This document shows positions 1,271-11,071 of a DNA stretch of 42,664 nt, piece by piece. The position numbers and the translations under genes were made by a program. Numbering within the stretch: position 1 is the first letter of the stretch; every line of letters begins with the position of its first letter. The stretch lies in NCBI GenBank assembly GCA_903889135.1, contig CAISWF010000044.1, positions 1-42,664 of the forward strand, given 5' to 3'. Under the pieces are notes generated by a model, which worked only from the letters and a program-made list of their open reading frames with translations, was not told where the DNA came from and searched no databases. Origin of the DNA: Candidatus Omnitrophota bacterium (GTDB lineage Bacteria > Omnitrophota > Gorgyraeia > Pluralincolimonadales > Pluralincolimonadaceae).

Positions 1271-2248
1271 TCAGGCGATGGTGCGGCCTATCGAGGCGGC
1301 GATGGATCCCATGCACGGGGCGCAGGCGCCGGTCGATTCGCTGATGCATCTTTTATTGGGGTAGATCTCGTATAATTTTTTGTAAGGCGCGGGCGTGAAG
1401 TTCGGCATGAGGACATTAGCTCCGGCCTTCAGCCCCTCTACCCTGAAATCTTTTCCCAGACTGCCGAGGGCGGTGGTCGCCGGGAGGTTCGCCCTTTTCG
1501 TGACTATGCGGGTGAGCGCGAGGGTTTTAAGGACTAAATTGACATCTCCGGCCTGCTTGCCCGCGAGCGGCGTTTTCCCGTGCGGGATGAACGGCCCGAT
1601 GCCTATCATGTCGAAATCCCATTCTTTGAAGAATAATATGTCGTTGGCGATGGAACGCAAAGTCTGGCCGGGGAGACCGACCATTATGCCTGAGCCGGTC
1701 TCGTAACCCAGGCCTTTCAGGTCGCGCAGGCAGCGCAGGCGGTTCTCAAAATCCATGCCGTAGTGCAGGGAATTGTAAAGCTTTTTGTCGGACGTCTCGA
1801 TCTTGAGTAGATACCTGTCCGCGCCCGCGTCCTTCCATAATTTATAATCTTCGCGCGGCCTCTCCCCCACCGAAAGGGTCACCGCGATTTCATATCTTGA
1901 TTTTATATCTTTGATGAGGCCGGCAAGCCACTCGGGCCTCAGCATGGGATTCTCGCCCGACTGCAGGACGACAGTCTTTATATCTGCGGCGGCGATCTGC
2001 GAGACGCTGTCGAGTATCTCTTCTTTTGTCAGGCGGTATCTTTCGAGAGACCTGTTCGTCGCGTTGAGCCCGCAATAGTAACAATATTTTCCACAATAAT
2101 TTGAGAACTCGATAAGCCCGCGCAGGAGGATCGCGTCGCCGACATATTTACGGCGGACTTTATCTGCCTGTTCATAAAGCTCGAGGAGCGACTTCTCGTC
2201 TTCGAGCGAAAGAAGCCGTTCGAGCTCTTTTGCGTCATACATATTCAT
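1271..2248 (-). CDS. hydE: [FeFe]-hydrogenase H-cluster radical SAM maturase HydE
   Basis: CGKYCYYC radical SAM motif, BioB-like fold, YEIYPNK and C-terminal Cx7Cx2C (CISESTGACAPC); overlaps the hydG stop. Start could be 2242, 2248 or 2251. Confidence 0.92.
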   Translation of the reverse strand: MNMYDAKELERLLSLEDEKSLLELYEQADKVRRKYVGDAILLRGLIEFSNYCGKYCYYCGLNATNRSLERYRLTKEEILDSVSQIAAADIKTVVLQSGENPMLRPEWLAGLIKDIKSRYEIAVTLSVGERPREDYKLWKDAGADRYLLKIETSDKKLYNSLHYGMDFENRLRCLRDLKGLGYETGSGIMVGLPGQTLRSIANDILFFKEWDFDMIGIGPFIPHGKTPLAGKQAGDVNLVLKTLALTRIVTKRANLPATTALGSLGKDFRVEGLKAGANVLMPNFTPAPYKKLYEIYPNKRCISESTGACAPCMGSIAASIGRTIA

Positions 2249-3617
2249 CACGCATGCCCGCGTCTACAGCTGAGAATAATTTTGAGATCTGGGCGCGGGA
2301 TTTTTCGTCGAGTTTCGCGGTCTCGCGCTCGATAAGTTCGTAGCCCGTCTCTTTTATTTTGGGTGAGGCGAAGTCGGCGAGATATTCCTTGAACGTCACG
2401 AGCGCGTTGACGCTGCACATGCCTTTTATGAGGCCGGGCTTTGCCAGGCTCATGAAACTCTCCCCTGTCCTCTCCCTGCGGTAGCAGGCGGCGCAGAAGC
2501 TAGGGATATAATTTTTCTCGATGAGCATGCCGACGAGCTCTTCAAGGCTGCGCTTATCGCTCGTGGTGAACTGGCCGTCCCATTTTTCGCTGTCGGAATA
2601 TCCGCCCGGCGAGGTCTTCGACTCGGCACTTATCTGCGAAATGCCCAAACTAATGACCTCATCCCTCATCTCTGCCGTCTCCCTTGTCGTAAGTATCATC
2701 CCGGTATACGGGACAGACAGACGGATGACAGCGACGAGTTTTTTGAAATCGTCATCCGATACCTGATATGGGGGATGGAGTGAAAACTCTGACCCCACCG
2801 CCGGCTCGATGCGCGGAACCGATATCGTGTGCGGGCCGACGTTGAATTTCTTCTCGAGGTGCTCGATGTGCATCATCATCGCCAGCGTCTCGAACCTGTA
2901 ATCGTAAAGCCCGTAAAGCGGCCCTATGCCGACGTCGTCTATCCCGGCCGAAAAGGCGCGGTCTATGGCATCGAGACGGTTGTCAGGATCGCTCTTCGGC
3001 CCCTTAAGGTGGCATTTCCTGTATGTATCGTCGTGGTATGTCTCCTGGAACAGCTGGAATGTGCCGATGTTCGAGGCCTTAAGTTTCTTGAAATCTTCTA
3101 CCGACAGGGGCGCGCAGTTAATATTCACCCTCTTTATGTAGTGCTGGCCGACGCGCGCTGAATACGCGGCCTCGACCGCCTCCGCATAATATTCGATGGC
3201 GGATTTGCCCGGGACGCCCGATTCACCCGCTACGACGAGGATGCGCTTGTGCCCTCTTTTAAGCAGCCACTCGACTTGCTCGCGGATCTCGGCGGCGTTG
3301 AGGTATTTCCTTTTTAATCCGGCATTGCCGGACTGGAACGCGCAATAGACGCATTCGTTCGCGCAGAAATTCGAGATGTAAAGCGGCGCGAATAGGACAA
3401 CGCGGTTGCCGTAGATGGCGTTCTTGACGTATGCCGCCGCCTCGAAGATCTTTTTTACCAGGCGCGGATCATTGACCGCGAGGAGCGCGGCCGTCTCTTC
3501 GATGGCGAGGCGCTTGAGCGAGCGCGATTTGTTTAAAATCGGGACGATTTTATCCTCGCCGGCCTTTCCGGCGTTGTTGAGCAGGTCCTGTATCTTGTTT
3601 TCGTCGATATGCTTCAT
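2235..3617 (-). CDS. hydG: [FeFe]-hydrogenase H-cluster radical SAM maturase HydG
   Basis: ThiH-like; APLYISNFCANECVYC, GPHTISVPR, C-terminal PSFCAAC...GMC auxiliary cluster motif. Confidence 0.96.
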   Translation of the reverse strand: MKHIDENKIQDLLNNAGKAGEDKIVPILNKSRSLKRLAIEETAALLAVNDPRLVKKIFEAAAYVKNAIYGNRVVLFAPLYISNFCANECVYCAFQSGNAGLKRKYLNAAEIREQVEWLLKRGHKRILVVAGESGVPGKSAIEYYAEAVEAAYSARVGQHYIKRVNINCAPLSVEDFKKLKASNIGTFQLFQETYHDDTYRKCHLKGPKSDPDNRLDAIDRAFSAGIDDVGIGPLYGLYDYRFETLAMMMHIEHLEKKFNVGPHTISVPRIEPAVGSEFSLHPPYQVSDDDFKKLVAVIRLSVPYTGMILTTRETAEMRDEVISLGISQISAESKTSPGGYSDSEKWDGQFTTSDKRSLEELVGMLIEKNYIPSFCAACYRRERTGESFMSLAKPGLIKGMCSVNALVTFKEYLADFASPKIKETGYELIERETAKLDEKSRAQISKLFSAVDAGMRDEYV

Positions 3618-4850
3618 CTCTTCTCCTTTTTCGAACCTCTTTCAAAAGCGTCAAGGGCCGCCGGGAACGGCGAGAGCACCCTTTTTATCACGCCCTGCGA
3701 CACGGATATTGCGAGCCCGTAATTTGTTATCGGCACGCCCGCTTCTTTTGCCTTTCCTACGCGGCTTAGCATCTCGCGGCGCGTTATCATGCAGCCGCCG
3801 CAATGTATCACCAGTTTATATTCTTTTAAATTATCCGGGTAATCGCGGCCCGAAGAGATATCTATCGTCAGGTCTCCCCCGACGTATTGCCTGAGCCAGC
3901 GCGGGATCTTCACGCGGCCGATGTCGTCTTCTATCGCGTGATGGCTGCACGCCTCGGCGATCAATACCTTATCGCCGGGTTGCAGAGATCCGATCACTGC
4001 CGCGCCTTTTGCCGCCTCAACTAGATCGCCCTTATACCTGGCAAATAAGATCGAGAATGTTGTGCATTTCACGGACGGCGGCGTATCCGCGACCATCTTT
4101 AATACGACCTGCGAATCGCAGACTACGATATCCGGCGGCGACTTCAGTTTGGCGAGCGCGGACGAGTATTCCCTCTCTTTCACGACGAGCGCGGACGAAT
4201 CGTTATCGAGCGCGTCGCGTATCGTCTGGACTTGCGGCAAAATTAGGCGCCCCTTCGGCGCCTGTAGGTCTATCGGGACGATGAGCACGGCTAGGCCGCC
4301 GGCTGGGAGCAAGTCGCCGATAAGCGCGGGAGGATTAAAGAAATCTTCAGGGCAGGCCTCGAGCAGGTATTTCTTAAACTCGCTTATGCTCTTATCCCTA
4401 TCCTTGCCGTTTACGCTCGAACAAAGGATTACCCTGTTTATCTTTTTTATAATATTATTTACGAAGGCGGCGGCCGGCATTCCGAGGTCTATTTTATTTA
4501 TAGCCGCGATCACGGGTATCTTATGTTTCTCCGCCTCAGATAAAACCGCGTCCTCATAATCCGTCCATATCCCCGGTTCAACAACGAGGACCGCCACATC
4601 CGAACGGTCGAAGATCTTATTCGTTTTATTGAGACGCGCCGGGGCTAGCTCGGACTTATCATCGAGGCCCGCTGTATCGAGGAAGACGACCGGCCCTACC
4701 GGCAAGATCTCCATCGATTTCTCTACTACATCCGTCGTAGTGCCGGCGACCGGCGAGGTTATCGCCACGTCCTGCCCGGCTATCATATTAAGGAAACTCG
4801 ATTTGCCGACGTTCGTCCGGCCGAAGATCCCTATCTGCAACCTTAACGAT

Positions 4851-4867
<17 letters not shown>
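3614..4867 (-). CDS. hydF: [FeFe]-hydrogenase H-cluster maturation GTPase HydF
   Basis: GRTNVGKSS, DTAG, NKID GTPase motifs; APKGRLILPQVQ; EACSHH...HCGGC cluster ligands. Confidence 0.97.
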
Positions 4868-6251
<1,384 letters not shown>

Positions 6252-6503
6252 TTATTTCCCTTTGCTCAAAGCGGATTTCACCGAAACGCCGGGTATCAGC
6301 CCCAGCCTTCCGGTCAGCGCGCCGACATCATCGGTCGTAGCGTCGACGATGAGCGTTATTATCGAGCAATTCCTTTCTTTGTACGGGATGCCCATCCGCC
6401 CCTGGATGATATTCCCGAACTCGGACAGGATCTTATTGACCTCTCCCGCCTGCTTGTTCCTGTCCGTCACTATTATCCCCATAAACCCCAGTCTCTTGTT
6501 CAT
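6252..6503 (-). CDS. TM1266-family iron-only hydrogenase system putative regulator (ACT-like fold)
   Basis: About 83 aa; NKILSEFGNIIQGRMGIPY...IITLIV...LTGRLGLIPGVSVKS; AGGAGG ahead of ATG 6503; sits in the hyd maturation operon. Confidence 0.9.
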   Translation of the reverse strand: MNKRLGFMGIIVTDRNKQAGEVNKILSEFGNIIQGRMGIPYKERNCSIITLIVDATTDDVGALTGRLGLIPGVSVKSALSKGK

Positions 6504-6518
6504 TTCCACCTCCTAAAT

Positions 6519-6549
6519 AAAAAAAGCCCGGCGTGAGCCAAGCCGGGCT
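6519..6549 (-). terminator. Intrinsic terminator immediately upstream of the maturation operon
   Basis: Minus strand AGCCCGGC-ttggctcac-GCCGGGCT followed by a T tract, a few nt before the AGGAGG site. Confidence 0.88.
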
Positions 6550-6604
6550 AAATTTACCGCTTTCAGCCCCTTGGCTTCAGAGTCGCCTCTTTACCGCAGG
6601 TATT
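6519..6604 (-). promoter_or_regulatory. Candidate attenuator/riboswitch-like leader with a mutually exclusive antiterminator
   Basis: AGCCAAG-GGGCTGAA (6576-6562) can pair with TTTAGCCC-GG-CTTGGCT (6552-6536), consuming the terminator 5' arm and loop; upstream GNRA hairpin AGAG-GCGA-CTCT; GCGGTAAA occurs twice. Confidence 0.62.
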
Positions 6605-6636
6605 TAATAGAACACCCCCGCTGAGGCGGGACTGCG

Positions 6637-8388
6637 CTACCTCTTGTAGATGGGACGTCCTTTATATGTCGTGTGGAGAAGTTTTTCGGATTTTTCGCTC
6701 AACGGCTTCTCCAAAAATTCCTTGTATAACCTCTTTATATACGGGTTCTGGTGCGAGCACCGGACCGCTTTAGTCTTGTCGTCTTCATACAGCGCCTGTG
6801 ACCTGAGCGTCCTGACCTCGTCGGTCACCATGTACGGCTGGCCGCCGCCTCCGACGCAGCCGCCCGGGCACGCCATTACTTCGATGAAATGATAGGGCAA
6901 TTCTTTGCCCGCTTTCTTCGCTTCCCTTACTTTGTTCAAAACATATTCGACGTTCGCCATGCCGTGCGCGACCGCGACCCGGACTTTTTTTCCGCCGACT
7001 TCGATCTCACCCTCTTTGACCCTCTTCAGGCCCCTGACGACATCGAGGTCGACTTTCTTCAACTCTTCGCCGGTTATGAAATAATTCGCGGTCCTTAACG
7101 CGGCTTCCATGACGCCGCCGGTCGAGCCGAAGATGACGCCAGCGCCGGCGTATTCGCCGAGTATCGTATCCGATTCTTCATCGGGAAGGTTCATGAAATC
7201 TATGCCCGCCTGTTTGATCATCAGCGCGAGCTCCCTTGTCGTCATGACGATATCTATATCCTGGTAACCTGAGGCGGACATCTCGTCGCTCCTGGTTATC
7301 TCGTATTTCTTGGCGGTGCAGGGCATTACCGAGACCATGACTATCTTCGAAGGGTCGATGTTGTTCTTCTGCGCGTAATAGGTCTTCGAGAGGACGCCCA
7401 ATATCTCGTGCGGCGATTTGCAGGATGAGAAATGGTCTATCATGTCGGTGTGGAACTTCTCCATGAAATCCACCCACGACGGGCAGCAGGTCGTGATCAA
7501 AGGAAGCGGCTTCGTGCCTTTTACGAACCTCTGCTCGAACTCGCTCGCCTCTTCCATTATGGTGACATCGGCCGCGAAGCTCGTATCGAATACAGCCTTG
7601 AAACCGAGCCGCCTCAACAGGGCGTATAATTTCCCGGTGAAATTCTTTCCCGCGACCCCGAACGCCTCGCCTATGGAGGCCCTGACAGCCGGGGCGATCT
7701 GCACTACGCAATACTTATCGGCATTCTCGAGCGCCTTCCAGACCTTCGGCACGTCGAAGTATTCGACGATAGCGCCGGTCGGGCAATGCGCCGAGCACTG
7801 GCCGCACTTTATGCACGGCGACTCGGCCAGCGTTATGTCACCGGCCGGGGAGAACCTCGTCTTTATGCCGCGCTGGAGGAACGAGAGCGCCCATACGTCC
7901 TGCATCTCCTGGCAGACATAGATGCACCTGCCGCACAAGATGCATTTTTCCGGCTCGAGGACGACGGCCTTAGTCGAGTCATCCATCGGAAGGTCGCGCT
8001 TTATCTTCGGGAAATATTCCTCGGAGATACCGAAGTCCGCGACTATCTTCTGGAGCTCGCAGTTATTGTTGCGGCCGCAGATGAGGCAGTCGTTGGGGTG
8101 GTTCGAAAGTATCAGTTCAAGGACGCTCCTCCTTATCGCGACTATCTCGGGATCGTGGGTCGTTATCTCCATCCCCTCTTCCATAGGGGTGCAGCAGGCC
8201 CTGAGCATCTTGTTGGAGCCCTTCGCCTTGACCACGCAGATGCCGCACGACGCGGACGGCGGAAGGTCGGGATGCTTGCAAAGCGTCGGTATCTTTATCT
8301 GGACGCTTTTGGCCGCCTCGAGTATCGTCGTCCCCTCGGGAACCTTGATGAATATGTCGTTTATCTTCGCCTGTATGGATTTTGCCAT
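6637..8388 (-). CDS. hydA: [FeFe]-hydrogenase catalytic subunit, group A3 multimeric NAD-linked type (HydA/HndD)
   Basis: H-cluster motifs TTCCPSW, MPCTAKKYE, EVMACPGGCVGGGGQP; N-terminal 2Fe-2S, HxxxCxxC and 2x[4Fe-4S] domains. Confidence 0.97.
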   Translation of the reverse strand: MAKSIQAKINDIFIKVPEGTTILEAAKSVQIKIPTLCKHPDLPPSASCGICVVKAKGSNKMLRACCTPMEEGMEITTHDPEIVAIRRSVLELILSNHPNDCLICGRNNNCELQKIVADFGISEEYFPKIKRDLPMDDSTKAVVLEPEKCILCGRCIYVCQEMQDVWALSFLQRGIKTRFSPAGDITLAESPCIKCGQCSAHCPTGAIVEYFDVPKVWKALENADKYCVVQIAPAVRASIGEAFGVAGKNFTGKLYALLRRLGFKAVFDTSFAADVTIMEEASEFEQRFVKGTKPLPLITTCCPSWVDFMEKFHTDMIDHFSSCKSPHEILGVLSKTYYAQKNNIDPSKIVMVSVMPCTAKKYEITRSDEMSASGYQDIDIVMTTRELALMIKQAGIDFMNLPDEESDTILGEYAGAGVIFGSTGGVMEAALRTANYFITGEELKKVDLDVVRGLKRVKEGEIEVGGKKVRVAVAHGMANVEYVLNKVREAKKAGKELPYHFIEVMACPGGCVGGGGQPYMVTDEVRTLRSQALYEDDKTKAVRCSHQNPYIKRLYKEFLEKPLSEKSEKLLHTTYKGRPIYKR

Positions 8389-8390
8389 TT

Positions 8391-10151
8391 TTATTCCTTT
8401 GATACCGCTTTGAACTTGCAGACCTCAAAACATTTACCGCAACGTACGCATTTGTTCATGTCTATGACGTAGCCGTCATCTTTGTTGCCGGTTATCGCCT
8501 TCGCCTCGCAGTTCATCATGCAAACCGAGCACTTCTTGCATTTCTCCGGGATTATCTTATAGCTTAAGAGGTTGCGGCATTTCTTCGACGGGCATTTTTT
8601 ATTGATGATATGGACTTCATACTCGTCCTGGTAATACCTAAGTGTTGAGACGACCGGGTTAGGCGCGGTCTGTCCGAGGCCGCAGAGCGCGGCCTTTTGC
8701 ATCGCCTGCGAAATCCTCCGTAAATTATCGAGATCAGTCAATTCCCCCAGGCCTTCCGTGATCTTGCTCAAGGTGTTGAGCATCTGGGCGGTGCCGATCC
8801 TGCACGGAGAGCATTTTCCGCACGACTCCTCAAAGCAGAACCTCTGGTAGAACCTCGCGATATCTACCATGCAGTCGTCCTCATCCATGACTATCATGCC
8901 GCCCGAACCCATTATCGAGCCCAGCTTCTGGAGGTTCTCGTAATCTACCGGCGTATCAAGAAAATCCTTGGGTATGACGCCGCCGGACGGGCCGCCTGTC
9001 TGTATCGCCTTGATCGCCTTGTTATTGAATATGCCGCCGCCAATATCATATACTATCTCGCGGATCGTCGTGCCCATGGGGACCTCGACGAGCCCGGAAT
9101 TTTTTATCTTGCCTGTGAGCGCGAAGACTTTTGTGCCTTTCGATGTCGCCGTGCCGACGCGCGCGAACACATCTCCCCCTTTAAGTATGATATAAGGCAC
9201 GTTGGCGAGGGTCTCGACGTTATTTATTACCGTCGGGCTGCCCCAGAGGCCCTTTACCGAAGGATACGGCGGGCGCGGATGAGGCGTTCCTCTCCTGCCC
9301 TCGATGGAGGCGATAAGCGCCGTCTCTTCGCCGCAGACGAAAGCGCCTGCACCTAATCTTATCTCGAGGTCGAAATTAAAATTGCTTCCCAATATGTTAT
9401 TGCCCAGCAACCCGCGCTCGTAACAACGGTCGATGGCGTTCTGGATCCTGTCGACGGCGAGCGGGTATTCGGCCCTTATGTAAAAATATCCTTTTGTGGC
9501 TCCGATGGAAAAACCGGCTATCATCATGCCCTCGACGACCGAGTACGGGTCGCCCTCGAGCACGCTCCTGTCCATGTAAGCGCCAGGGTCGCCCTCGTCG
9601 CCGTTGCAAATGACGTATTTCTGGTCAGCGGTCATCTGTTTCGCGAAATTCCACTTCATCCACGTCGGGTATCCGGCGCCGCCCCTGCCGCGCAGGCCGC
9701 TCTTCTTTATCTCGTCTATGACTTTTTCCTGGGTCTTTAATTCAAAAAGGACTTTCTTTAGCGATTGGTAACCGTCCCTTGCAAGATAGTCGTCTATATT
9801 ATCCGGGTCGACAATGCCGCAGTTCCTGAGGACTATCCTTAATTGTTTGGGCTCCTTGCACGTAACGAGGTCCTGGACGGGCTTGCCCCCCTGCGAAGGG
9901 ACTTCGCCTTCTTTTATGGAATCTATGATGCGGTTTATATCCCCGTCTTTGACGTTATAATAAGTCGTATCCGGCAGGACTTTTATCACCACGCCCTGGT
10001 TATAGACGCCGATATCGGCGGCGCGGACAGCCATTACCGAATCCTGCATGCCGCGTTCCCGCAGGCCGTTCAGGAAGGCCGCGTAGACATCCTTCGTCCT
10101 CTCCGGCTGCAATATCCCGGTATCCTTTATATATACAATCTTCCTATCCAT
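8391..10151 (-). CDS. hydB: NuoF-like FMN/NADH-binding hydrogenase subunit (HydB/HndC)
   Basis: [55 protein letters not shown]-terminal 2x[4Fe-4S]. Confidence 0.95.
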
Positions 10152-10506
10152 TAGCTTTCTTTACCTGTATGTCGTAAATGTGGTCGTTTACAAGCCTGTG
10201 GTTATGTATGTGGTCATCGAGTATCTGTATCGCGACATCCTTGTCCACCTTGCCGTAGGTCACCTGGGGCATCCCCTCGACGTTCACCTCTACGAGCGGC
10301 TCGACCGAGCACATCCCGGCGCAGCCGCACTTTTTTATCGTGACCTGGATATTCCTCTTCTTCACCTCTTCGGTGAGGGTCTTAAAGACATCTTCGGCGC
10401 CGGCGGCGATGCCGCAGCTCGACATACCGACTTTTATCCAGTTCTTATCTTCCTTTTTCGGCTGTTTCGCTATGTTATCAAGTTCTTCTTTTGTGATCTT
10501 GCTCAT
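10144..10506 (-). CDS. Thioredoxin-like (2Fe-2S) ferredoxin hydrogenase subunit (HydD/HndB)
   Basis: [12 protein letters not shown]...[14 protein letters not shown]...TYGKV; lies between the NuoE-like and NuoF-like genes. Confidence 0.88.
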
Positions 10507-11042: not shown

Positions 11043-11071
11043 AATATATCATACCGGCGGATATCTGTCAA
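11043..11071 (-). promoter_or_regulatory. Sigma70-type promoter of the hydrogenase operon
   Basis: Minus strand TTGACA (11071-11066), 17 bp spacer, TATATT (11048-11043) with an extended -10 TG. Confidence 0.75.

What the first reader, a model, noticed from the sequence alone, without database searches (positions are those of the whole stretch)
6515..6636. Candidate new RNA switch gating the hydrogenase maturation genes
Seen (minus strand): a strong intrinsic terminator (8-bp GC-rich stem plus U tract) sits a few nt before the ribosome-binding site of the TM1266-aspA-hydFGE operon. A longer alternative helix, AGCCAAG.GGGCUGAA paired with UUUAGCCC.GG.CUUGGCU (15 bp, 2-nt bulge), uses the terminator's 5' arm and loop, so the two folds exclude each other. 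Upstream is a GNRA hairpin (AGAG-GCGA-CUCU). The octamer GCGGUAAA occurs twice (6597-6590, 6560-6553), once as the antiterminator loop. There is no room for a promoter after the terminator, so expression needs read-through. It matches no riboswitch consensus I recognise. Inference: either an undescribed riboswitch or a protein-dependent attenuator. The first downstream gene is the uncharacterised TM1266 regulator, with an ACT/ferredoxin-like fold and no DNA-binding domain, so it could bind the repeated octamer and autoregulate maturase synthesis.
Basis: partly seen in the sequence, partly recalled or inferred. Interest (0 to 1): 0.82.

Follow-up and report, generated by a model that had tools for sequence, protein, structure and literature searches.

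The report
Conserved leader RNA gating hydrogenase maturases
A short folded RNA that is conserved in many bacterial phyla and matches no catalogued RNA family sits between the [FeFe]-hydrogenase gene and its maturation genes, and most likely lets a small uncharacterised protein (TM1266 family) or a metabolite switch their transcription off.

Summary
The core of the region is a ~40-nt hairpin (window 6603-6567, minus strand) with consensus CCUGCGG-Y-RA-GG[P2]CU-GAA-NCC-A-AGGG.

- **Conservation:** I found it at 86 sites in 87 hyd loci I had selected. Record titles name about ten phyla. Helices P1b and P2 covary.
- **Clostridia:** these carry a variant, YCUGA-[P1b]-RA-[P2]-RA-[P1b']-RA-AGG.
- **Rfam 15:** no family matches.
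- **Context:** sites lie before TM1266-family genes, hydG, hydE, aspA or a second hydA. Many lie directly after hydA.
- **Switch logic:** an intrinsic terminator usually follows. Its 5' arm pairs with the hairpin's 5' strand, or in the window's genus with its 3' strand. A stabilised hairpin therefore favours termination (OFF switch).
- **Effector:** unproven. The RNA occurs almost only in genomes that encode TM1266. It was found in none of 40 HydG+ TM1266- relatives, and I saw two exceptions overall. That pattern, the low-information G·A-loop hairpin and frequent tandem copies favour a TM1266-dependent attenuator (~0.55) over a metabolite riboswitch (~0.25).

It is a new family of a known kind of regulator.

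The parts
6565..6610 (-). Conserved leader hairpin (aptamer-like domain), core 6603-6567. P1a is 6600-6598 with 6571-6569. Loop 1 is G6597 and C6596 opposite A6572. P1b is 6595-6593 with 6575-6573. Loop 2 is A6592 and A6591 opposite G6578, A6577 and A6576. P2 is 6590-6587 with 6582-6579, with GCGA loop 6586-6583. The GG tail is 6568-6567.
   Evidence: The model hit is 57.7 bits and is the only real hit in the genome. On the 14-sequence alignment 96.0% of cells are paired, against 85.9% in shuffles (0 of 500 reach it). On the 86-site alignment 93.7% are paired, and the covariation score is 0.265 against 0.135 (0 of 500).
6536..6576 (-). Genus-specific antiterminator helix. 6576-6561 pairs with 6552-6536. 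It uses the 3' strand of P1 and the terminator's 5' arm and loop.
   Evidence: It has 15 canonical pairs and evaluates at -22.5 kcal/mol with P2. It is the MFE fold of transcripts ending at 6536 or 6533. It is kept, with changes, in L002-L004.
6519..6549 (-). Intrinsic terminator. The stem is 6549-6542 with 6532-6525, the loop is 6541-6533 and the U tract is 6524-6519.
   Evidence: The stem alone is -16.2 kcal/mol. The full-length MFE fold contains hairpin plus terminator.
6553..6560 (-). Second GCGGUAAA octamer, which forms the loop of the antiterminator.
   Evidence: It is present in the window. It is absent from the same-genus loci L002-L004.
6501..6514 (-). RBS AGGAGG (6514-6509) and start codon (6503-6501) of the TM1266-family gene.
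6252..6503 (-). TM1266-family protein, 83 aa. It is the candidate trans-acting partner.
   Evidence: TIGR03959 scores 110.2 bits against a cut-off of 60.8, and PF21699 scores 109.6 bits. PDB 2NZC matches at E 4.2e-14. The model has pLDDT 94.9 and its closest folds are 2NZC, the NikR C-domain and ACT.
1271..6251 (-). Genes gated by the leader: aspA 6251-4851, hydF 4867-3614, hydG 3617-2235 and hydE 2251-1271.
   Evidence: NCBIfam and Pfam scores over cut-off.
6637..8388 (-). hydA, the [FeFe]-hydrogenase catalytic subunit. It ends 26 nt before the model hit.
   Evidence: NF040763 scores 781.8 bits.
6616..6631 (-). Small GC hairpin just after the hydA stop codon. It looks weakly like a terminator.
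   Evidence: It is not conserved in L002-L004.
11043..11071 (-). Best promoter-like site, upstream of hydC. It is the likely source of the transcript that reaches the leader.
   Evidence: TTGACA-17-TATATT with an upstream TG. No promoter-like site was found between hydA and the leader.

Best explanation
The 133-nt spacer between hydA and the TM1266-family gene encodes a transcription attenuator that belongs to a widespread, so far uncatalogued RNA family.

Transcription comes from upstream, from the hydC-fdx-hydB-hydA unit. A ~40-nt irregular hairpin is made first. It consists of P1a, a G·A loop with a bulged C, P1b, a purine-rich loop and P2.

If nothing holds this hairpin together, one of its strands is captured by the 5' arm of the downstream terminator. 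In this genus that is the 3' strand GCCAAGGGG plus CUGAAA. In most other lineages it is the 5' strand CCUGCGGUAAGG. The capture forms an antiterminator, and RNA polymerase reads on into TM1266-aspA-hydF-hydG-hydE.

If a factor binds and locks the hairpin, the terminator forms a few nucleotides before the RBS and the maturase genes stay off.

Shown here:
- the conserved structure;
- the mutually exclusive pairings;
- the gene contexts;
- the co-occurrence with TM1266.

Inferred:
- the factor is the TM1266-family protein itself, possibly loaded with a ligand through its ACT/NikR-C-like fold. That would give negative feedback on maturase synthesis;
- copies of the hairpin at hydA 3' ends respond to the same factor.
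For: **Structure**
- All 14 TM1266 loci found in 41 related genomes carry the motif upstream.
- P2 and P1b covary. For example, pair 20-65 is GC in 65 sites, AU in 10 and GU in 10.
- In Clostridia P1b varies freely: CGCC/GGCG, CCAC/GUGG, UUGC/GCAA, CACC/GGUG and UUAC/GUAA.

**Specificity**
- The motif has one real hit in its own genome.
- 46 of 120 pattern hits across 185,579 species genomes lie beside hyd genes on the same strand. The first hyd-type gene downstream is TM1266 at 38 sites, hydG at 4, aspA at 1, hydA at 1 and none at 3.

**Switch**
- In 22 of 40 leaders with a detectable terminator, the first 14 nt of the hairpin pair with the terminator hairpin better than at least 98% of shuffles. 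The pairings are 10-13 contiguous bp in, for example, L105, L155 and L034.
- Truncated transcripts fold into the antiterminator and full-length ones into hairpin plus terminator.

**TM1266 link**
- In 151 genomes of the window's class, TM1266 is present in 24 and HydG in 63. Model hits confirmed by context are in 18 of the 24. Four more carry a divergent form by eye. None of the 40 HydG+ TM1266- genomes has one.
- In 101 Desulfovibrionales genomes, hits near hyd genes occur in 8 of 15 TM1266+ genomes and in 0 of 86 TM1266- genomes.
- 9 of 10 motif-bearing genomes from other phyla encode TM1266. At least four of them have gene and RNA on different contigs.
- In Clostridia 21 of 22 genomes with a variant hit are TM1266+.
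- Only 1 of 11 HydG+ TM1266- genomes has the RNA before hydG.

**Other features that suit a protein site**
- Tandem copies, few invariant unpaired bases and a mostly basic partner protein with five conserved basic positions.
Against: - No binding was or could be tested here.
- Two genomes carry a good motif but no detectable TM1266: G168 and G365. Their completeness is unknown.
- Seven of 15 Desulfovibrionales TM1266+ loci, and 12 of the 31 Clostridial TM1266 loci by eye, show no motif upstream of TM1266. The protein therefore does not need this RNA everywhere.
- In Clostridia the co-occurrence has little power. Variant hits occur in 20 of 82 HydG+ TM1266+ genomes against 1 of 11 HydG+ TM1266- genomes.
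- The regulon-like spread over hydG, hydE, aspA and TM1266 units is just as typical of a riboswitch.
- TM1266's nearest folds are metal- and ligand-binding domains, not RNA binders. S10/NusE and S6 appear only among weaker neighbours.
- pI does not separate motif-linked from motif-less TM1266 proteins.
- Related genomes are not independent. Part of the alignment was collected with a sequence pattern and fitted to the model.
Confidence: 0.55

Rival explanations
1. It is a metabolite- or ion-sensing riboswitch. The hairpin's G·A loops and bulge form a small pocket for a compound tied to H-cluster assembly, for instance a by-product or precursor of the HydG/HydE radical-SAM reactions, an amino acid or iron. 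Ligand binding locks the hairpin and terminates transcription. TM1266 is merely one of the regulated genes.
For: - The core is conserved in about ten phyla by record titles.
- Expression platforms are varied: intrinsic terminators, RBS overlap in L278, L282 and L283, and a hairpin followed directly by a U tract.
- Several separate transcription units per genome carry it: hydG, hydE, aspA and TM1266.
- Tandem arrangements occur.
- Two motif-bearing genomes have no detectable TM1266.
Against: - The motif holds little information. In the Clostridial form only about a dozen positions are conserved, mostly G·A-type loop purines.
- It was found in none of 40 HydG+ genomes lacking TM1266 in the window's class, and in 1 of 11 in Clostridia.
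- Copies sit at hydAB 3' ends with no regulated gene behind them: L104, L163, L236, L238 and L229.
Confidence: 0.25
2. It is an effector-independent element. The hairpin and terminator form a fixed partial terminator and/or a 3'-end stabiliser or processing site of the hydA mRNA. It sets a constant ratio of structural to maturase transcripts. The alternative pairings have no regulatory role.
For: - The motif lies directly after hydA at 25 of 47 sites.
- In some Desulfovibrionales the hairpin, closed by extra GC pairs and followed by U's, is itself the hydAB terminator.
- Full-length MFE folds mostly favour hairpin plus terminator.
Against: - A mere terminator does not need about 20 nearly invariant nucleotides across phyla.
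- 21 of 47 sites have no same-strand hyd-type gene upstream within the locus. One example is L012, which has a -10-like box just upstream.
- The complementarity between the hairpin strand and the terminator arm is maintained through sequence change, for example CGG to CGA with the matching U.
Confidence: 0.1
3. The hairpin is bound by another trans factor. This could be a different protein, such as a maturase or apo-HydA, an L7Ae-like G·A-loop binder or an RNase, or it could be a small RNA. TM1266 only travels with it.
For: - Tandem G·A loops are common protein-recognition elements (general knowledge, recalled).
- TM1266's closest folds are not RNA-binding.
- TM1266 loci without the motif exist.
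Against: - No other gene co-occurs as tightly. Maturases are present in 40 motif-less genomes of the class.
- The loops lack the 3-nt bulge of K-turns.
Confidence: 0.1

Closest known systems
Protein-mediated transcription attenuation (PyrR with the pyr leaders, TRAP with the trp leader, HutP with hut; recalled from the literature, not tested here)
   Same: A leader RNA has mutually exclusive antiterminator and terminator folds. A small regulatory protein binds a leader hairpin and decides which fold forms. As with PyrR, binding would stabilise an anti-antiterminator hairpin and cause termination.
   Different: The RNA motif is unrelated to those leaders and has no Rfam hit. The candidate protein has an ACT/NikR-C-like fold that is not known to bind RNA. 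The candidate regulator is usually the first gene of the regulated operon. Copies of the site also sit at the 3' end of the structural gene hydA.
Small hairpin-type riboswitches with terminator expression platforms (kind, not a specific class)
   Same: A conserved hairpin with internal loops supported by covariation, followed by a terminator that competes with it. Several operons of one pathway are controlled. Tandem copies occur.
   Different: No match to any of 4227 Rfam models. Few invariant unpaired bases. Presence is tied to one protein family.
Autoregulatory leaders bound by the product of the first gene (ribosomal-protein leaders; recalled)
   Same: The site lies just upstream of the gene for a small basic protein. 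G·A-rich internal loops look like a recognition surface. The site varies between phyla while its architecture is kept.
   Different: It is not tied to translation genes. It acts mainly through an intrinsic terminator. It is also found before hydG, hydE and aspA when TM1266 is encoded elsewhere.
NikR C-terminal regulatory domain and ACT domains (for the TM1266 protein)
   Same: The fold is beta-alpha-beta-beta-alpha-beta. Foldseek TM-scores to NikR C-domains are 0.73-0.83.
   Different: TM1266 has no ribbon-helix-helix DNA-binding domain. No conserved His or Cys metal ligands appear in the 35-sequence alignment.

Membership tests
Any Rfam 15 family (4227 models, all curated riboswitch classes included) | Covariance-model score at or above the family's gathering threshold | tested here: not met
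   No hit in the whole window. In 6300-6900 at E up to 10, only sRNA models aligned to the terminator, at 12-20 bits against thresholds of 34-99. In 15 diverse loci that carry the motif, the only hit was an unrelated tRNA.
Intrinsic (Rho-independent) terminator | GC-rich stem-loop directly followed by a U tract | tested here: met
   An 8-bp stem with 6 GC pairs and a 9-nt loop, followed by a run of seven U's counting the last stem base.
Riboswitch (kind) | Conserved structured sensor domain supported by covariation | tested here: met
.
Riboswitch (kind) | Expression platform mutually exclusive with the sensor fold | tested here: met
Riboswitch (kind) | Direct, protein-free binding of a small ligand | not testable with these tools
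   This needs in-line probing, ITC or in vitro transcription.
Riboswitch (kind) | Distribution independent of any single protein factor | tested here: not met
   The motif was found in 0 of 40 HydG+ TM1266- genomes of the class and 0 of 86 TM1266- Desulfovibrionales genomes. It was found in 1 of 11 HydG+ TM1266- Clostridia. There are two exceptions overall, G168 and G365.
Protein-dependent attenuator (PyrR/TRAP kind) | Leader with terminator and antiterminator alternatives, plus a hairpin whose stabilisation selects the terminator | tested here: met
Protein-dependent attenuator (PyrR/TRAP kind) | A dedicated regulatory protein that co-occurs with the RNA site, also when the two are unlinked | tested here: met
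   Unlinked cases are G165, G166, G169 and G170.
Protein-dependent attenuator (PyrR/TRAP kind) | Physical binding of the protein to the RNA | not testable with these tools
   No RNA-protein prediction or assay is available here.
TM1266 family (TIGR03959 / PF21699), for the downstream gene | Profile score over the curated cut-off, and the 2NZC fold | tested here: met
   110.2 bits against 60.8, and 109.6 against 27. Foldseek TM-score to 2NZC is 0.91 at 42% identity.
K-turn (L7Ae-type binding site) | A three-nucleotide bulge followed by tandem sheared G·A pairs | tested here: not met
   Read from the alignments. Loop 1 is G plus a bulged C opposite one A in the window's form. In the Clostridial form it is a symmetric GA/GA loop. 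No 3-nt bulge is present.
T-box leader | Specifier loop and the T-box sequence in the antiterminator | tested here: not met
   No Rfam T-box hit. The leader is only about 100 nt long.

The most novel reading that the evidence does not exclude
TM1266-family proteins are a new class of RNA-binding attenuation factor built on an ACT/NikR-C-like fold. They recognise a hairpin with two G·A loops. That hairpin is placed both in the leaders of the H-cluster maturase genes (TM1266, hydG, hydE, aspA) and at the 3' end of hydA mRNAs. Abundant hydA transcript would then titrate the repressor and switch on maturase synthesis. This would be an mRNA-decoy circuit that couples cofactor assembly to apo-enzyme supply in anaerobes of more than ten phyla.
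Probability: 0.2. Interest if true: 0.9.

Novelty: new member of a known kind. Interest (0 to 1): 0.8.

Why it matters
- In my literature searches I found nothing on how bacteria regulate synthesis of the HydE/F/G maturases of [FeFe]-hydrogenases.
- The TM1266 family has had a solved structure since 2006 and the label 'putative regulator', but I found no demonstrated function.
- A conserved leader RNA tied to that protein gives a concrete, testable mechanism, a predicted binding site and a predicted direction of control.
- If the effector is a metabolite instead, this would be a new riboswitch class reporting on H-cluster assembly.
- Either way the element is a handle for tuning maturase expression in hydrogen-producing strains, and an annotation marker for hyd regulons in uncultured anaerobes.

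Tried and rejected
- **Transcript evidence:** one metatranscriptome run (X1, Logan contigs, 0.05 of the words) was found and laid. It gave only short pieces 80-95% alike, and none crossed the leader. It says nothing about ends or read-through.
- **The search of earlier findings:** the first call had too many words.
- **Loose structural descriptor on Clostridial upstream regions:** it scored no better than shuffles and I dropped it. I replaced it with a strict descriptor with controls.
- **R2 on 31 Clostridial TM1266 loci:** it gave one weak hit. The family there is a variant that needed its own model, R3. R3 was built from only 7 sequences and is insensitive.
- **Net charge and pI of TM1266 proteins:** these do not separate motif-linked from motif-less genes.
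- **Fold neighbours of TM1266:** these are generic ferredoxin-like domains and do not decide for or against RNA binding.
- **The TM1266 paralogue in the same genome (G000:C36, L083):** it follows what reads like a phosphofructokinase-type gene (by eye, not searched) with no leader. The 8 paralogue loci L015-L022 lack the motif.
- **The repeated octamer as a protein site:** rejected, because the second copy is not conserved.
- **Literature:** six full-text searches used TM1266, hydG/hydE with riboswitch, hydrogenase maturation with riboswitch candidate, hydrogenase system regulator, structured noncoding RNA with hydrogenase, and orphan riboswitch.
  - I read passages of PMC3543383 and PMC9481103. 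Neither describes this element.
  - Subscription journals and supplementary motif lists were not visible, so prior description cannot be excluded.
- **Correction to my notes:** Recounting one search gives 22 of 40.
- **First submission:** I added the field and sent the same report again.
Full report
**1. What is in the window**

On the minus strand the genes run hydC (10985-10503), a small 2Fe-2S ferredoxin-like ORF, hydB/NuoF-like (10151-8391) and hydA (8388-6637). A 133-nt spacer follows. Then come a TM1266-family gene (6503-6252), aspA, hydF, hydG and hydE.

- the terminator: stem 6549-6542 with 6532-6525, and U tract 6524-6519;
- the RBS at 6514-6509;
- the competing 15-bp helix: 6576-6561 with 6552-6536;
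- the AGAG-GCGA-CUCU hairpin at 6590-6579;
- GCGGUAAA at 6597-6590 and 6560-6553.

The consensus scan also finds the terminator. It finds no promoter-like site between hydA and the leader. The best promoter-like site, TTGACA-17-TATATT, lies upstream of hydC at 11071-11043.

Rfam 15 gives nothing for the whole window at gathering thresholds. In 6300-6900 at E up to 10 it gives only weak sRNA matches that align to the terminator.

**2. The conserved unit**

A search with the TM1266 protein in 41 related genomes found 14 homologues. All 14 have the same sequence 95-185 nt upstream of the start codon: AUACCUGCGG-YRAGG-[variable hairpin]-CUGAAGCCAAGGG. The 8 loci of a distant paralogue have none.

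In the window this unit is 6603-6567. I read it as one irregular hairpin:
- P1a: CCU paired with AGG;
- loop 1: G and a bulged C opposite one A;
- P1b: GGY paired with RCC;
- loop 2: RA opposite GAA;
- P2: variable.

On the 14-sequence alignment 96.0% of cells are paired, against 85.9% in column shuffles. The covariation score is 0.345 against 0.146, and 0 of 500 shuffles reach it. Versions with the 3' partner slid by up to three columns pair at 26-56%.

A covariance model of this alignment (R1) has one real hit in the window's own genome, at 57.7 bits. The next hits score 18.7 and 15.5 bits.

**3. Distribution**

*The window's class.* In 151 genomes, R1 gave 30 places at E up to 0.01. Fifteen of them lie upstream of a TM1266 homologue. 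The other 15 have no hyd gene nearby and lie in what look like coding regions.

*Pattern scan.* I scanned 185,579 species genomes with CCTGCGRYNARGN{4,22}CTRWN{1,2}YYWAGGG.
- 46 of the 120 loci have hyd-type genes on the same strand, giving 47 sites.
- The first hyd-type gene downstream is TM1266 at 38 sites, hydG at 4, aspA at 1, a second hydA at 1 and none at 3.
- Three of the four 'hydG' sites have a divergent TM1266-like ORF in between.
- hydA is the nearest upstream hyd gene at 25 sites.
- Four more loci (L093, L144, L145, L198) score 37.9-43.2 bits with model R2 but show no hyd gene by tblastn in the DNA held.
- The other 70 loci are chance matches.

*Taxa.* Record titles of the hyd-linked loci name Omnitrophota, Planctomycetales, Lentisphaerota, Verrucomicrobiota, Spirochaetota, Desulfovibrionaceae, Syntrophales, Cloacimonadota, Fibrobacter, Caldatribacterium and KSB3. 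Two loci labelled Omnitrophota are nearly identical to loci of the window's own family.

*Second model.* R2 was built from 58 sites. It found 86 sites in 87 loci that I had selected as hyd-linked.
- On that alignment 93.7% of cells pair, against 84.7% in shuffles. The covariation score is 0.265 against 0.135, with 0 of 500 shuffles reaching it.
- Pair 20-65 is GC in 65 sites, AU in 10 and GU in 10.
- Two caveats apply. The alignment is fitted to the model. Part of it was collected with a pattern that fixes CCUGCG, ARG, CU and AGGG.

*Rfam on other carriers.* Rfam at gathering thresholds on 15 diverse carriers found only an unrelated tRNA.

**4. A Clostridial variant**

In 150 genomes of the class around an Oscillospiraceae MAG, TM1266 is present in 97. 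R2 finds next to nothing beside 31 of these genes.

Reading the upstream regions shows a hairpin of the same architecture with different helix sequences: YCUGA-[P1b]-RA-[P2]-RA-[P1b']-(G/A)A-AGG.
- Both loops are GA/GA-type.
- P1b changes freely: CGCC/GGCG, CCAC/GUGG, UUGC/GCAA, CACC/GGUG, CGCU/GGCG and UUAC/GUAA.
- A strict descriptor hits 10 of 31 loci. Shuffles give a mean of 0.15 (maximum 2 in 200), and the reverse complement gives 0.
- By eye about 19 of 31 carry it, often in tandem (L255, L264, L260, L251).

A model of seven of these sequences (R3) hit 22 of 151 genomes at 23 places.
- 13 places lie just upstream of TM1266.
- The other 10 lie before hydG (5), hydE (2), aspA (2) and one unidentified gene.
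- The five hydG sites are L278, L282, L283, L284 and L287. In the first three the 3' strand of the hairpin overlaps the RBS.
- The hydE sites are L285 and L288, and the aspA sites are L281 and L286.

**5. How it switches**

*Other lineages.* A terminator could be detected in 40 of the 58 leaders examined. In 22 of those 40, the first 14 nt of the hairpin pair with the terminator hairpin at least as well as the best 2% of 200 shuffles.
- The duplexes are 10-13 contiguous pairs in L105, L155, L034, L092 and L093. They cover the upper 5' arm and loop of the terminator.
- Lineages with CGA instead of CGG have the matching U.
- The GGG tail of the hairpin faces the CCC that starts nearly every terminator.

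*The window's genus.* The hairpin's 5' strand does not pair with the terminator in L001, L002 or L004, where shuffles do as well.

*Energies for the window.*

| Fold | Energy (kcal/mol) |
|---|---|
| Hairpin alone | -11.5 |
| Terminator stem alone | -16.2 |
| Hairpin plus terminator | -27.7 |
| Antiterminator plus P2 | -22.5 |
| Full-length MFE (hairpin plus terminator) | -33.2 |

A transcript ending before the terminator's 3' arm folds into the antiterminator, at -25.9 to -26.3 kcal/mol. Other lineages behave the same way.

Both designs therefore give one logic. The nascent RNA goes to the antiterminator unless the weak P1 is held shut. Holding it shut frees the terminator. This logic is inferred from sequence and was not measured.

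*Other platforms.*
- In Desulfovibrionaceae a first copy lies right after hydB and is followed by a C-rich, G-poor tract. A second copy, with an intrinsic terminator, precedes TM1266.
- In other Desulfovibrionales the hairpin is closed by extra pairs and followed by U's, so it is itself the hydAB terminator. The next gene is on the other strand.

**6. Which effector**

Co-occurrence with TM1266:
- **Window's class.** TM1266 is over cut-off in 24 of 151 genomes and HydG in 63.
  - Hits supported by context are in 15 of the 24 with R1, and in 3 more with R2 (L056, L066, L069).
  - Four genomes of one genus carry a divergent form by eye.
  - One locus is unclear and one is cut by a contig end.
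  - None of the 40 HydG+ TM1266- genomes has a supported hit.
- **Desulfovibrionales.** In 101 genomes TM1266 is present in 15. Hits next to hyd genes are in 8 of those 15. The two hits in TM1266- genomes lie in apparent coding sequence without hyd genes.
- **Carriers from other phyla.** Of 10 checked, 9 encode TM1266.
  - In G165, G166, G169 and G170 the gene is on another contig and has no motif of its own. The RNA sits before hydG or after hydAB.
  - In G167 two copies lie 6.7 kb apart, before TM1266-hydG and before aspA-hydF.
- **Clostridia.** 21 of 22 genomes with an R3 hit are TM1266+.
  - HydG is present in 93 genomes and 82 of those are TM1266+. The comparison is therefore weak: 20 of 82 against 1 of 11.
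  - Looking directly upstream of hydG in the 11 HydG+ TM1266- genomes, only G365 has the RNA.
  - G365 shows no TM1266 even at E up to 1.
- **Exceptions.** G168 and G365 are the two exceptions, and their completeness is unknown.

The converse does not hold. Several TM1266 genes have no detectable motif.

The protein:
- It is 83 aa long and mostly basic.
- R4, R15, R36, K/R66 and K76 are conserved, and there are no conserved His or Cys residues.
- It folds like 2NZC and the NikR C-domain. S10/NusE and S6 are among the weaker neighbours.

None of this shows binding.

My weighting:

| Effector | Probability |
|---|---|
| TM1266-dependent attenuator | 0.55 |
| Metabolite riboswitch | 0.25 |
| Effector-independent element | 0.1 |
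| Another trans factor | 0.1 |

**7. Verdict**

This is a real regulatory RNA of an uncatalogued family that gates the maturase genes. The octamer repeat and the GNRA loop are incidental. The drawn antiterminator is one lineage's solution. The real recognition element is the two-loop hairpin.

No description was found in Rfam 15 or in six full-text searches. Supplements and subscription journals were not visible.

It is a new member of a known kind of system, a transcription attenuator. It has a plausible and testable link to a structural-genomics orphan protein.

Noticed in passing
L087 1095-1520, L102, L107, L109, L134, L160 (Desulfovibrionaceae): There are two copies of the motif per locus. 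The first lies right after hydB and is followed by a C-rich, G-poor tract that looks like a Rho-loading site. A conserved AT-rich promoter-like block comes next. The second copy has an intrinsic terminator and precedes TM1266.
   Followed up: partly
L236 ~816-858, L238 ~812-855, L229, L223 and L224 ~1501-1547: In some Desulfovibrionales the motif hairpin is closed by extra pairs (GCAAC/GUUGC) and followed directly by U's. It therefore looks like the terminator of hydAB itself. The next gene is on the opposite strand.
   Followed up: partly
L004, L009, L010 (between hydA and the motif, and after the terminator); L115, L181: Palindromic GGGAC...GUCCC elements of about 35 nt (for example GGGACGGUUCU...AGAAGUGUCCCC) recur around the leader in several genomes. 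They may be REP-like repeats.
   Followed up: no
G000:C36 5503-5709 (L083 1474-1731, minus strand): A distant TM1266 paralogue (PF21699 at 20 bits, below cut-off) follows directly after what reads like a phosphofructokinase-type gene (by eye, not searched). It has no leader RNA. Similar paralogues are in L015-L022.
   Followed up: partly
L144 1-900 (Spirochaetia MAG): A good motif (38.6 bits with R2) lies at the very start of a contig. It is followed by a C-rich tract, a 19-codon ORF, a P-II protein, a GAF/HAMP histidine kinase and an AraC-type response regulator. No TM1266 was found in that genome.
   Followed up: partly
L186 2694-2738 and 4833-4878 (Syntrophales MAG): There are two motif copies in one cluster. 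One lies between two hydA paralogues and has its own terminator. The other precedes TM1266-hydG-hydE.
   Followed up: no
window 10144-10506 (minus strand): A 120-aa ORF with a weak thioredoxin-like 2Fe-2S ferredoxin match lies between hydC and hydB and overlaps both by a few bases.
   Followed up: no
L300 ~600-690 (G365): The one Clostridial genome with the motif but no TM1266 also has GACCUGCGGAAC just 5' of its variant hairpin. This resembles the 5' strand of the other form of the motif.
   Followed up: no
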